Part shown: positions 9,001-12,000 of the stretch, piece by piece | Layout of the letters: the number at the start of each line of letters is the position of its first letter | Position numbering within the stretch: the stretch's first letter is position 1 | NCBI RefSeq assembly: GCF_013167455.1 | Contig: NZ_CP038328.1 | Reading direction: 5' to 3' (one strand) | From: Escherichia coli O157:H7 | Lineage (GTDB): Bacteria > Pseudomonadota > Gammaproteobacteria > Enterobacterales > Enterobacteriaceae | Length of the DNA: 64,000 nt | Made by a program: the position numbers

Positions 9001-12000
9001 GCTGACCGTATTACGACCGTTCGCGCAGCGATTGCCGATGGCGCAAAACCTTCTGATCTGAATCGCCCGGGCCACGTTTTCCCACTCCGCGCTCAGGCTG
9101 GTGGTGTACTGACGCGTGGCGGTCATACTGAAGCAACTATTGATCTAATGACGCTGGCAGGCTTCAAACCGGCTGGTGTGCTGTGTGAGCTGACTAATGA
9201 CGATGGCACGATGGCGCGTGCACCAGAGTGCATTGAGTTTGCCAATAAACACAACATGGCGCTCGTGACTATTGAAGACCTGGTGGCATACCGTCAGGCA
9301 CATGAGCGTAAAGCCAGCTGAAAACCGCTGCTTAATTTACTGCCTTAATCAAGAAACCGAAGTTGTAGCAGGCTTCGGTTTTTATTTTTCCCTACTATGC
9401 AAGATGTTAATTCCGCTTCTCTTTCTATGAGAAAATTTCATTAATATCAGGCATTCTTTTTCATTATGATCAAAATCATATAATTGTTCCGTTATTATGC
9501 GACCATATGAATATATCCGAAAAAGGATATGTGAAATTTATGCGCTAAATGTTTAGTATTGTTAAATATTAAGGGTAAAAGGATGTTTATCGCCTGGTAC
9601 TGGATTGTATTGATTGTTCTGGTTGTGGTGGGTTATTTCCTGCATTTGAAACGTTATTGTCGGGCATTTCGCCAGGACAGAGACGCACTGCTTGAAGCGC
9701 GGAACAAATACTTAAACAGTACGAGAGAAGAGACAGCCGAAAAGGTAGAATAAGGCTTTAGTGAAACTAGCAGAAGTTGTCCCTGCGCTGGACAACTTCT
9801 GATGTTGCTTTTAACCAATTCCCGCCGTTTGTAGCAGCACCAAACTGAATCCCATCACTGACATTCCACATAGTACGCCATAGCTGGGGTTATTATTAGG
9901 GTCAATCTCTTTGGCGAGCGGCATTAATTCATCAACCGAGAGCGCCACCATAATTCCTGCGACCGCCGCCATGATTGCTGCCATGACCACCGGGGAAATC
10001 ATGCTACCGAGGATTAACCACGCCAGCACACCACCAAGAATTTCTGCCAGTCCAGAAATCCCCGCCCACAGAATTGCCGTGCGTTTAGAACCCGTTGCTG
10101 CATAAACCGGGCCTGCAACCGCCAGACCTTCAGGAATATTGTGCAACGCGACGGCCAGTGCGATGCCAAATCCCAGCTCCAGGTTGCTGCTCGCCGTGAC
10201 AAAGGTGGCAATCCCTTCCGGGAAGTTATGCAGACTGATGCCGAGAGTGAGCAGAATGGCTGTGCGCTTGATCGATTTTGGCAACGGCTGCACCGATTTT
10301 TGCATTAAATCCTGCGGATGCGCATGCGGCAACATGCGGTCCAGGCCAAAATAGCCAAGCAGACCGAAGATAAACATTCCATAACCCAACACAGGCGACA
10401 TTCCTTCAGCTGCTAGTGCGGCAGGAAGCATTTCCATTAATGAGATGAGCAACATGATCCCCGCCGCAAATCCTAGCGAAAACGCCAGTAAGCGGTTCGA
10501 GGGTTTTTGCCCGAGAACGCCGAGAAACGCGCCAATAAACGTGGCTGCCCCCGCCAGTATGGTCAGAATGAGAGGTACTGACATCGACAACTCCTTATAA
10601 ATCTTCACCTTCAGGCAGATCGTCAAAATAACTGATGATCATCATCATTGTTATCCGGGTTCTTACTCCGCCGAACAAGCGTATCGTGAGGATATCAAAA
10701 TGACACCTTTAGTTAAGGATATCATCATGTCTTCAACACGTATGCCAGCATTGTTTTTAGGTCACGGTAGTCCGATGAACGTGCTGGAAGATAATTTGTA
10801 TACCCGCAGCTGGCAGACGTTGGGGATGACATTGCCACGCCCGCAAGCGATTGTGGTAGTTTCGGCTCACTGGTTTACCCGTGGAACAGGAGTGACCGCG
10901 ATGGAGACGCCGCCCACGATTCATGACTTTGGTGGCTTCCCGCAGGCGCTGTACGATACGCATTATCCTGCTCCGGGTTCGCCTGCGCTGGCACAGCGTC
11001 TGGTTGAGCTGTTAGCGCCGATCCCGGTGACGCTGGATAAAGAAGCCTGGGGCTTTGACCACGGTTCCTGGGGCGTGCTGATTAAGATGTATCCTGACGC
11101 GGATATCCCGATGGTGCAGTTGAGTATCGACAGTAGCAAACCTGCCGCCTGGCATTTCGAAATGGGGCGAAAACTCGCGGCGCTGCGTGATGAAGGAATA
11201 ATGTTGGTCGCCAGCGGCAACGTGGTGCATAACCTGCGTACAGTGAAGTGGCACGGTGATAGTTCACCGTATCCTTGGGCGATGTCGTTTAATGAGTATG
11301 TGAAAGCGAATCTGACGTGGCAAGGGCCGGTAGAGCAGCATCCTCTGGTGAATTATCTCGACCATGAAGGTGGCGCGTTATCGAACCCAACGCCAGAGCA
11401 CTATCTGCCGTTGCTGTATGTCTTAGGTGCGTGGGATGGGCAGGAGCCAATTACCATTCCGGTCGATGGTATAGAAATGGGCAGTTTAAGTATGCTGTCG
11501 GTGCAGATAGGTTAACAATTACCGGATGGCGAATGCCATCCGGCATCATTGATTATTCAACAAAAATATGTGGATAAAACCGAGACATATCCTGGGTGAT
11601 CAATGCACGGTCTTCACGAATGCCAATTCCGGCGGGTTGATCGTTCACCAGCCAGCTACCAATCAGCATATAGCTGTCGCCGAATTTCGGTAACGGGTGG
11701 AATTGCTGAACAATCATCCCTTCTTCGCCATACGGACCTTCCGCTGCTTCAATGGTTTTGCCGTTCTCAATGATCGACACGTTTGCGCCTTCACGGGAGA
11801 AGATCGGTTTAACCACATATTTTTCCATTTGCGGATGATCATCTTCCGCAAAATAAGCGGGCAGCAGGTTCGGGTGATTCGGGAACATCTCCCACAGTAG
11901 CGGTAGAAGTGCCTTGTTGGAGATAATGCTCTTCCACGCCGGTTCCAGCCAGCGTACGCCTGCATCCTCCAGCTTGGTGGAAAACATCTCACGCAACATA

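What the first reader, a model, noticed from the sequence alone, without database searches (positions are those of the whole stretch)
9390..9810. Stand-alone small membrane protein gene between ribB and zupT
A 56-aa ORF (MFIAWYWIVLIVLVVVGYFLHLKRYCRAFRQDRDALLEARNKYLNSTREETAEKVE) has a strong RBS, an AT-rich promoter-like upstream region (9390-9580) and a perfect 11-bp stem-loop terminator. This looks like an expressed single-TM small protein of unknown function.
Basis: seen in the sequence. Interest (0 to 1): 0.35.

Follow-up and report, generated by a model that had tools for sequence, protein, structure and literature searches.

The report
Known small membrane protein gene yqiD
The 56-codon ORF between ribB and zupT is yqiD (b4756), an E. 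coli small membrane protein gene that was shown to be translated in 2018 and is already in RefSeq; its function is still unknown, so the finding is real but not new.

Summary
An intact 56-codon ORF lies at window 9583-9753 (+), with a TAAGGGT Shine-Dalgarno, a 26-31% GC upstream region and a 12-bp hairpin (9771-9801) shared with convergent zupT. It is not a new gene. RefSeq annotates it as yqiD / "protein YqiD" (K-12 b4756). VanOrsdel et al. 2018 detected chromosomally SPA-tagged YqiD by immunoblot and noted it was positive in tetracycline ribosome profiling. My analyses add five points. (1) The frame is intact in all 48 loci examined (Escherichia, Salmonella, Citrobacter, Intestinirhabdus, Kosakonia, Phytobacter). 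(2) Codons 2-40 are under strong purifying selection (pN/pS 0.08); the tail is looser (0.49). (3) The conserved core is a TM helix plus a cytoplasmic motif [KR]-R-x-C-[RK]-A-[FYC]-R-[QH]-[DE]-R-[DE]-A-[LI]. (4) The gene lies next to zupT in 44/48 loci, but the upstream neighbour varies (ribB, assT-dsbL-dsbI, or a fimbrial operon). (5) E. coli has two deeply divergent haplotypes (dS about 1.8 against 0.1-0.2 in the flanks), and the minority one is linked to a fimbrial operon and labelled only "hypothetical protein". Function remains unknown. The most likely role is a bitopic (N-out/C-in) accessory or regulatory subunit of a larger membrane protein. Verdict: already known, low interest.

The parts
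9352..9383 (+). ribB intrinsic terminator (13-bp stem, then TTATTTTT). It insulates yqiD from ribB read-through.
   Evidence: -16 kcal/mol, z -3.9
9384..9462 (+). Lineage-specific AT-rich spacer. It has no alignable similarity to the ST131, Salmonella or Citrobacter upstream regions. This is the point where other genomes carry the assT-dsbL-dsbI module or a fimbrial operon.
9465..9480 (.). Conserved perfect palindrome TATGAT-CAAA-ATCATA at the upstream edge of the conserved yqiD control region (consensus ATATGATCnAAATCATAT in Escherichia, Salmonella and Citrobacter). It is a candidate operator for an unidentified dimeric regulator.
   Evidence: conserved in 5 of 6 aligned genera/alleles; the only match in the 64-kb window; 0.15 expected
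9525..9582 (+). Highly conserved ~58-nt block directly upstream of the ATG (GGATATGTGAAATTT..CGCTAAATGTTTAGTAtTGTTAAATATTAAGGGTAAAAGG). It probably holds the core promoter and/or 5' UTR; the TSS was not determined here.
   Evidence: 88% identity between the O157 and ST131 alleles here, against 40-75% further upstream
9570..9576 (+). Shine-Dalgarno TAAGGGT, 6 nt before the ATG
9583..9753 (+). yqiD CDS, 56 aa (WP_000469270.1). It differs from K-12 YqiD by A12V.
9586..9642 (+). Predicted transmembrane helix (residues 2-20, FIAWYWIVLIVLVVVGYFL). The W5-Y6-W7 aromatic cluster would sit at the periplasmic face.
   Evidence: KD 2.55; W5 in 46/46 unique sequences
9649..9690 (+). Conserved cytoplasmic juxtamembrane motif, residues 23-36 (KRYCRAFRQDRDAL). 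R24 45/46, C26 44/46, A28 46/46, R30 46/46, R33 45/46, A35 45/46.
9691..9750 (+). Variable, charged C-terminal tail (residues 37-56). Constraint is relaxed.
   Evidence: pN/pS 0.49 against 0.08 for the N-terminal part
9771..9801 (.). 12-bp stem / 7-nt loop hairpin between the convergent stop codons of yqiD and zupT; a shared bidirectional terminator.
   Evidence: The hairpin is retained with different stem sequences in Escherichia, Salmonella and most Citrobacter.
9811..10584 (-). zupT (ZIP-family metal transporter), the convergent neighbour. Listed as context, not shown to be functionally linked.

Best explanation
The feature is yqiD (b4756), a known, independently transcribed gene for a 56-residue bitopic inner-membrane protein. 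Shown: the ORF is translated in E. coli K-12 (published SPA-tag and ribosome profiling), and it is conserved under purifying selection in a subset of Enterobacteriaceae. Inferred from sequence: residues 2-20 span the membrane with only 1-2 residues on the periplasmic side. The basic segment that follows (5 K/R in 16 residues) places the C-terminal ~35 residues in the cytoplasm (positive-inside rule) as a continuation of the helix. Selection concentrates on the TM helix and on the juxtamembrane motif [KR]-R-x-C-[RK]-A-[FYC]-R-[QH]-[DE]-R-[DE]-A-[LI], while the tail drifts freely. That pattern fits a protein whose job is a specific contact at the cytoplasmic face of the membrane. It would act as an accessory or regulatory subunit of a larger membrane protein, in the manner of AcrZ, MgtS, MntS or KdpF, rather than as an enzyme or channel. 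Transcription starts within a conserved ~120-bp module (palindrome 9465-9480 plus block 9525-9582) embedded in AT-rich DNA, and ends at a hairpin shared with zupT. My probabilities: it is yqiD and a real protein, 0.97; N-out/C-in membrane anchor, 0.8; it acts by binding a membrane-protein partner, about 0.5; that partner is ZupT, about 0.15. The partner and the physiological role are unknown.
For: Identity: 100% DNA match to O157:H7 genomes, where the ORF is annotated 'yqiD: protein YqiD'; K-12 b4756 / YP_009518818.1.

Translation: SPA-tag immunoblot, and a positive in tetracycline ribosome profiling (PMC6001520).

Transcript: yqiD is named as the last locus (b4756) on the axis of a plot of 785 protein-coding genes with NAD-capped RNAs (PMC13273102). 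Its upstream region was cloned as a reporter and gave effects consistent with the expression GWAS (bioRxiv 10.1101/2025.06.10.658842).

Conservation: 48/48 loci have an intact 52-74-codon ORF. pN/pS is 0.08 for codons 2-40 and 0.49 for the tail. Codon-position entropy is 0.27/0.16/0.98. omega is 0.03-0.1 against Salmonella and Citrobacter.

Topology and shape. Motif.

Own promoter: ribB terminator; variable upstream neighbours with a conserved 120-bp module.

Regulation hint: the EAEC 042 allele (EC042_3334; the qRT-PCR primers match the gene) rises about 4-fold in an aar mutant, together with the divergent fimbrial gene EC042_3335.
Against: No experiment shows membrane localisation, topology, a binding partner or a phenotype; all of that is inference. 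No curated family matches above cut-off in Pfam or NCBIfam. The promoter was not located: consensus hexamer matches are at chance level. The protein evolves fast (39-47% identity in Kosakonia and Phytobacter, where ZupT is 87-89% and RibB 91-93%), so constraint outside the core motif is weak. AlphaFold2 confidence is only moderate (pLDDT 72, pTM 0.35).
Confidence: 0.85

Rival explanations
1. YqiD is a dedicated modulator of the neighbouring ZIP-family metal transporter ZupT. Its TM helix would dock on ZupT, and the conserved Cys/Arg-rich cytoplasmic helix would tune or gate metal uptake.
For: yqiD is convergent with and immediately next to zupT in 44 of 48 loci across six genera, even when the upstream neighbour changes. 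The two genes share a terminator or overlap at their 3' ends. C26 is nearly invariant (44/46), and His21 is present in Escherichia, Salmonella and Citrobacter. Small membrane proteins are known to regulate metal transporters (MgtS, MntS, KdpF; established knowledge).
Against: Adjacency among close relatives is expected from shared ancestry alone. In L055/L056 ribB and zupT are 63 bp apart with no yqiD, and the yqiD-like gene sits elsewhere; in L014-L016 it sits next to ygiC. ZIP transporters occur far beyond the narrow set of genera that carry yqiD (established knowledge, not tested here), so YqiD cannot be a general ZupT subunit. His21 is not conserved in Kosakonia or Phytobacter. The one apparent ZupT-YqiD fusion (P0123) is an inversion in a 2-kb contig, not a domain fusion. 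Convergent orientation gives no co-transcription.
Confidence: 0.15
2. YqiD works with the AssT/DsbL/DsbI periplasmic sulfotransferase-oxidation module, for example as a partner of the membrane protein DsbI or as a co-regulated divergent gene.
For: A yqiD-family gene lies immediately divergent from assT or dsbL in 15 of 48 loci, in three different chromosomal arrangements. These include cases where it has left zupT and sits with the module between ygiD and ygiC.
Against: This window has ygiD directly followed by ygiC with no assT/dsbL/dsbI, and K-12, C. freundii, Kosakonia and Phytobacter likewise show no such module in the stretch examined, yet all keep yqiD under purifying selection. ST131 and EAEC 042 have the module at ygiD/ygiC with no yqiD-like gene beside it. 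The conserved Cys is predicted to be cytoplasmic, so DsbL could not reach it.
Confidence: 0.07
3. The main function lies in the transcript rather than the protein: convergent transcription of yqiD into zupT gives antisense or transcriptional-interference control of zupT.
For: The stop codons are 12-77 bp apart, or overlap, in all zupT-adjacent loci. In Kosakonia, Phytobacter, the C. amalonaticus/sedlakii group and L004 there is no room for a terminator between them, so the 3' ends must overlap.
Against: The substitution pattern is that of a protein under selection (pN/pS 0.08; third-position entropy 3-6 times that of positions 1 and 2), and the protein accumulates in vivo. In Escherichia, Salmonella and most Citrobacter a strong hairpin separates the two genes. 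At most this is a secondary effect.
Confidence: 0.05
4. It is a type I toxin-like hydrophobic peptide that is normally repressed by an antisense RNA.
For: It is small, has one TM helix, stands alone and sits in AT-rich DNA. Ibs-type toxins lie about 10 kb away in EAEC 042.
Against: Rfam finds no sRNA family at the locus. The gene is single-copy. Synteny is conserved across genera, and the long, conserved, charged cytoplasmic segment under purifying selection is unlike Ibs, Ldr, Hok or TisB peptides. The tagged protein is readily detected in LB-grown cells, which is not expected of a tightly silenced toxin.
Confidence: 0.03

Closest known systems
YqiD of E. coli K-12 (b4756, YP_009518818.1; VanOrsdel et al. 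2018, Proteomics 18:1700064)
   Same: Same gene: 55/56 residues identical (A12V), same position between ribB and zupT, same RefSeq product name.
   Different: Only the single substitution. The window is the O157:H7 allele.
Small single-TM regulators of E. coli membrane transporters and sensors (AcrZ-AcrB, MgtS-MgtA/PitA, MntS-MntP, KdpF-KdpABC, MgrB-PhoQ, SgrT-PtsG)
   Same: Size class (under 60 aa), one TM helix, stand-alone gene with its own promoter and terminator, lineage-restricted distribution, fast-evolving sequence with a conserved core. This is an analogy about how it may work.
   Different: No sequence similarity to any of them, no known partner, no known inducing signal, no phenotype. 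YqiD also has an unusually long (~35 aa) conserved cytoplasmic helix with a Cys/Arg motif.
'DUF4051' label used by NCBI and UniRef for some Salmonella and Citrobacter homologs
   Same: Homologs P0029, P0030, P0069 and P0075 carry this name in source databases, and EC042_3334 is called 'DUF4051 family' in PMC5570504.
   Different: The Pfam-A copy searched here gave no DUF4051 hit for YqiD or four homologs at E <= 1. The label adds no functional information.
Type I toxins (Ibs, Ldr, Hok, TisB, ShoB, DinQ)
   Same: Small hydrophobic inner-membrane peptides encoded in intergenic regions.
   Different: No antisense RNA family, not repeated, has a conserved charged cytoplasmic domain, and is readily detectable in normal growth.

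Membership tests
YqiD (b4756) orthologous group | Near-identical sequence to K-12 YqiD | tested here: met
   55/56 identical to the K-12 sequence printed in PMC6001520. RefSeq WP_000469270.1 'protein YqiD' covers exactly this ORF in a 100%-identical O157 genome.
YqiD (b4756) orthologous group | Position between ribB and zupT, convergent with zupT | tested here: met
   The ribB-yqiD junction has this form in 4423 of 5426 complete E. coli genomes.
YqiD (b4756) orthologous group | Protein is synthesised in vivo | not testable with these tools
   Taken from the literature for the K-12 allele: SPA-tag immunoblot plus tetracycline ribosome profiling.
Pfam DUF4051 | Match to the family HMM above the gathering score | tested here: not met
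   No DUF4051 hit at E <= 1 for YqiD or four homologs in the Pfam-A copy available. The name appears only in source annotations. The model may be absent from this Pfam release.
Small-protein regulators of membrane transporters (AcrZ/MgtS/MntS/KdpF type; a functional class, not a homology family) | Under ~60 aa with a single TM helix | tested here: met
   56 aa; KD 2.55 over residues 2-20; single helix in AlphaFold2.
Small-protein regulators of membrane transporters (AcrZ/MgtS/MntS/KdpF type; a functional class, not a homology family) | Physical association with a specific larger membrane protein | not testable with these tools
   No interaction data found. Genomic adjacency to zupT in 44/48 loci is only suggestive.
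Small-protein regulators of membrane transporters (AcrZ/MgtS/MntS/KdpF type; a functional class, not a homology family) | Expression controlled by the same signal as the target | tested here: inconclusive
   A conserved palindrome and a 58-nt block lie upstream, but no regulator was identified. The only regulatory datum is about 4-fold up-regulation in an EAEC 042 aar mutant.
Type I toxin-antitoxin toxins | Overlapping or adjacent antisense sRNA gene | tested here: not met
   No Rfam sRNA family at 9390-9810 at E <= 1 other than noise. The only promoter-like consensus match in 9250-9900 is on the + strand.
Type I toxin-antitoxin toxins | Toxicity on overexpression | not testable with these tools
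   No data found.

The most novel reading that the evidence does not exclude
YqiD is a lineage-specific regulatory subunit that uses its invariant juxtamembrane Cys/Arg helix to control a neighbouring envelope system. The most attractive candidate is the ZIP metal transporter ZupT, which would give enterobacteria post-translational, possibly thiol- or metal-sensing, control of a transporter generally regarded as constitutive. The two ancient E. coli haplotypes (18% against 82% of genomes) would then be functionally distinct alleles kept by selection together with a fimbrial operon.
Probability: 0.12. Interest if true: 0.5.

Novelty: already known. Interest (0 to 1): 0.14.

Why it matters
As a discovery it matters little, because the gene is named, annotated and experimentally validated. 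Its value is as one of many E. coli small membrane proteins that still lack a function. This analysis narrows where to look. The functional core is the TM helix plus a 14-residue cytoplasmic Cys/Arg motif. The gene keeps company with zupT and, repeatedly, with the assT-dsbL-dsbI module. E. coli carries two very old haplotypes, one of which RefSeq does not recognise as yqiD. These points give concrete mutants and partners to test, and they flag a small annotation inconsistency affecting about 990 complete genomes.

Tried and rejected
1. Curated families. Pfam and NCBIfam gave only sub-threshold, TM-driven hits for YqiD and four homologs (DUF2621 at 20.5 bits against a cut-off of 27.7; NF038143 at 18.3 against 50). 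I rejected these as composition matches.

2. Rosetta-stone fusion. P0123 (125 aa) looked like a ZupT N-terminus fused to a YqiD C-terminus. The contig carries the ZupT C-terminus on the opposite strand immediately after it, which is exactly what an inversion between zupT and yqiD would produce (or an assembly artefact). I rejected it as evidence of a functional link.

3. His21/Cys26 (plus Cys20) as a metal site. His21 is replaced in Kosakonia, Phytobacter and the 'RRWRE' subfamily, so only Cys26 is general. I downgraded the idea.

4. Second copy next to assT in ST131 or in the window. None found by tblastn.

5. Sigma-70 consensus scan. It was at chance level. By eye I weighed several -35/-10 pairs, and FNR/CRP-like, IHF-like and ArcA-like readings of the conserved blocks. 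None was convincing, so no regulator is claimed.

6. Rfam. Nothing at the locus.

7. Structure. AlphaFold2 gives a single helix. I did not run a fold search because one helix gives meaningless matches.

8. Literature. I found no functional study of E. coli yqiD; most 'yqiD' hits are the unrelated B. subtilis ispA homolog. The paper on the assT regulatory region (PMC3347046) is not held.
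Full report
**1. What is in the sequence**

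The window is an E. coli O157:H7-type chromosome; the 531-bp query around the finding is 100% identical to O157:H7 genomes. The order of features is:
- FMN riboswitch, 8416-8564
- ribB, 8668-9321
- ribB intrinsic terminator, 9352-9383
- an AT-rich stretch (GC 0.26-0.31 over 9350-9575)
- a 56-codon ORF, 9583-9753 (+)
- a 12-bp stem / 7-nt loop hairpin, 9771-9801
- the stop codon of convergent zupT at 9811

Three details need correcting. The stem is 12 bp, not 11. Its T-run is imperfect, and because it lies between two convergent stop codons it serves both genes. The number of sigma-70-like hexamer pairs in the region is at chance level (1 found, 2.0 expected), so the 'promoter-like' label rests on base composition and conservation rather than on a consensus match.

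**2. It is a known gene**

RefSeq annotates this exact ORF as yqiD, 'protein YqiD' (WP_000469270.1). In K-12 MG1655 it is b4756 / YP_009518818.1.

VanOrsdel et al. 2018 (PMC6001520) SPA-tagged 80 candidate sORFs on the K-12 chromosome. They list YqiD (56 aa, between zupT and ribB, coordinates 3183381-3183551) among the 36 detected by immunoblot in LB. They also note that it was an unannotated positive in the tetracycline ribosome-profiling screen of Nakahigashi et al. 2016. The window allele differs from K-12 only by A12V.

A 2026 study names yqiD as the last locus (b4756) on the axis of a plot of 785 protein-coding genes with NAD-capped transcripts. A 2025 preprint cloned its upstream region in a GFP reporter and found cis variants associated with expression differences between isolates. 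I found no functional study of E. coli yqiD.

**3. Conservation and selection**

A word-indexed search of 5.8 billion proteins found 108 relatives. All named ones come from Escherichia, Citrobacter or Salmonella. An exhaustive profile search of 1.84 billion cluster representatives found only 25 clusters at E <= 1e-3, so the family is small.

A scan of one genome per species returned 38 loci in Escherichia, Salmonella, Citrobacter, Intestinirhabdus, Kosakonia, Phytobacter and one 'Enterobacter sp.'. That scan used a single peptide pattern, so it gives a lower bound on the range.

In all 48 loci analysed the frame is intact at 52-74 codons. Selection statistics:
- Among 104 pairs of 58-codon alleles, pN/pS is 0.08 for codons 2-40 and 0.49 for codons 41-58.
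- Column entropy by codon position is 0.27 / 0.16 / 0.98 in Escherichia, Salmonella and Citrobacter.
- omega against Salmonella and Citrobacter is 0.03-0.1.

This is a protein-coding signature. The protein still evolves much faster than its neighbours: 39-47% identity in Kosakonia and Phytobacter, where ZupT is 87-89% and RibB 91-93%.

**4. Anatomy of the protein**

Residues 2-20 are strongly hydrophobic (Kyte-Doolittle 2.55). The N-terminal flank has no charge, and the 16 residues after the hydrophobic segment carry 5 K/R. By the positive-inside rule this predicts N-out/C-in. AlphaFold2 with the family alignment gives one continuous helix over residues 3-55 (mean pLDDT 72).

Across 46 unique sequences the best-conserved positions are W5 (46/46), R24 (45), C26 (44), A28 (46), R30 (46), R33 (45) and A35 (45). 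The core is [KR]-R-x-C-[RK]-A-[FYC]-R-[QH]-[DE]-R-[DE]-A-[LI], directly after the membrane segment. The last ~18 residues are variable.

No Pfam or NCBIfam model reaches its cut-off. The 'DUF4051' name that some source records give to homologs could not be reproduced with the Pfam copy available.

**5. Gene neighbourhood**

Downstream, zupT is convergent and adjacent in 44 of 48 loci, with stop codons 12-77 bp apart or overlapping.

Upstream the neighbour varies:
- ribB in 27 loci
- an assT-dsbL-dsbI module, divergent from yqiD, in 15 loci
- a four-gene chaperone-usher fimbrial operon in 2 loci

Alignable upstream sequence is limited to about 120 bp. It has a perfect palindrome at its distal edge (TATGATCAAAATCATA, 9465-9480; the only match in the window) and a ~58-nt block directly before the ATG. 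Together with the ribB terminator, this shows that yqiD carries its own control region.

The terminator hairpin is kept, with different stem sequences, in Escherichia, Salmonella and most Citrobacter. Where the gap is under 30 bp there is none, so the 3' ends must overlap.

There are three exceptions to zupT adjacency. In L014/L015 and L016 a yqiD-like gene lies divergent from assT between ygiD and ygiC. In L055-L057 ribB and zupT are 63 bp apart with no yqiD between them, and the yqiD-like gene sits divergent from dsbL-dsbI and heads a cluster with an arylsulfotransferase-like gene. These cases argue against an obligatory link to zupT and raise a possible link to the assT/dsb module. Against that link, this window has ygiD directly followed by ygiC with no such module, and K-12, C. 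freundii, Kosakonia and Phytobacter show none in the stretch examined. ST131 and EAEC 042 have the module without a yqiD-like gene beside it.

A protein that looked like a ZupT-YqiD fusion (P0123) is an inversion in a 2-kb contig.

**6. Regulation hint**

In EAEC 042 the gene called orf3334 ('DUF4051 family') in Santiago et al. 2017 is the yqiD homolog. The published qRT-PCR primers match the start and the tail of the allele present at that locus, and EC042_3335 is the adjacent fimbrial gene. RNA-seq counts rose from 15 to 62 in the aar mutant, and orf3334 was one of only 3 of 23 validated genes that went up. EC042_3335 rose as well (17 to 37).

Aar acts through H-NS-family proteins according to that paper's title and abstract. 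In S. Typhi the assT-dsbL-dsbI cluster is reported to be H-NS-repressed and LeuO-activated (review PMC4264507). It is therefore plausible, but not shown, that nucleoid-protein silencing of the AT-rich upstream DNA influences yqiD.

**7. Two old haplotypes in E. coli**

Of 5426 complete genomes, 4423 have the ribB-yqiD junction seen in this window. About 990 instead have a fimbrial-like gene followed by a divergent yqiD allele. That allele is 68-70% identical at the protein level and RefSeq labels it only 'hypothetical protein'.

Between the O157 and ST131 alleles, dS over codons 2-40 is about 1.8, against 0.19 in zupT and 0.11 in ribB, while dN/dS stays at 0.06. The divergent tract ends at the zupT stop codon. 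Divergence is mild to about position 10420 and identity is 100% beyond that.

The K-12-type allele is also found in E. albertii, E. whittamii and cryptic Escherichia clades (dS 0.04-0.3). The minority haplotype is therefore either an old import or a long-lived polymorphism. One recombinant allele (P0011) combines both types.

**8. Mechanism and verdict**

It is shown that this is a real, translated, independently transcribed gene under purifying selection. It is inferred that the product is a bitopic N-out/C-in inner-membrane protein whose selected surface is the TM helix plus a short cytoplasmic Cys/Arg helix.

The most economical reading is an accessory or regulatory subunit of a larger membrane protein, by analogy with AcrZ, MgtS, MntS and KdpF (probability about 0.5). 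Candidate partners are ZupT (about 0.15) and DsbI/AssT (about 0.07). I consider an RNA-level effect on zupT (0.05) and a type I toxin (0.03) unlikely.

The finding is correct but already known, so interest is low. The useful new pieces are the motif, the neighbourhood statistics and the two-haplotype structure.

Noticed in passing
window 9384-9815; L003 8579-9390 (ST131); L059 5670-6421 (EAEC 042): E. coli has two deeply divergent yqiD haplotypes. About 4423 of 5426 complete genomes have the ribB-yqiD form seen here. About 990 have a fimbrial operon plus a 68-70%-identical allele that RefSeq calls only 'hypothetical protein'. Synonymous divergence is about 1.8 in yqiD against 0.1-0.2 in ribB and zupT. 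The fimbria-linked class is itself heterogeneous, with identity bands from over 99% down to 60-80%.
   Followed up: partly
window 9322-9582; L060 (K-12) 3632-10197; L003 3606-8578: A ygiL-yqiG-yqiH-yqiI-type chaperone-usher operon occupies different sites in different strains. In K-12 it lies between ubiK and glgS, with yqiG split by IS2. In ST131, EAEC 042 and E. whittamii it lies between ribB and yqiD. In this O157 window it is at neither site. The ribB-yqiD gap is a recurrent insertion point, and in Salmonella and many Citrobacter it holds assT-dsbL-dsbI.
   Followed up: partly
L014 3951-4112, L016 1498-1722, L055 7001-7213: A yqiD-like subfamily with an 'RRWRE' tail (P0113, P0116, P0117) sits divergent from assT or dsbL between ygiD and ygiC, away from zupT. 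In L055 the ribB-zupT gap is only 63 bp with no yqiD. The source organisms are unnamed metagenome contigs.
   Followed up: partly
window 9465-9480: A perfect palindrome TATGAT-CAAA-ATCATA is conserved upstream of yqiD in Escherichia, Salmonella and Citrobacter. It contains a GATC site and loosely resembles CRP/FNR-family spacing (TGAT-N6-ATCA). No regulator could be assigned.
   Followed up: partly
window 9320-9390: The ribB stop, 3' UTR and terminator give a sub-threshold Rfam match to the Salmonella sRNA family STnc240 (29.1 bits against a gathering score of 55; E 0.077). This may reflect a ribB 3'-UTR-derived sRNA.
   Followed up: no
L012 1499-2027: A 2-kb Logan contig encodes a chimeric ORF made of ZupT residues 1-70 fused to a YqiD-like C-terminus, with the ZupT C-terminus on the opposite strand straight after it. 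This is the signature of an inversion between the convergent genes, or of an assembly artefact.
   Followed up: yes
L004 6198-6201; L041, L043, L047-L054 downstream of the match: In Kosakonia, Phytobacter, the C. amalonaticus/sedlakii group and related contigs, the yqiD and zupT stop codons are 12-33 bp apart or overlap, with no intervening hairpin, so the convergent transcripts must overlap. Three Kosakonia species use GTG as the yqiD start codon.
   Followed up: partly
L058 5836-6272 (EAEC 042): Two Ibs-family type I toxin genes are annotated between yqiK and hldE, about 10 kb from yqiD in EAEC 042. They are unrelated to yqiD but are another small-peptide locus in the neighbourhood.
   Followed up: no
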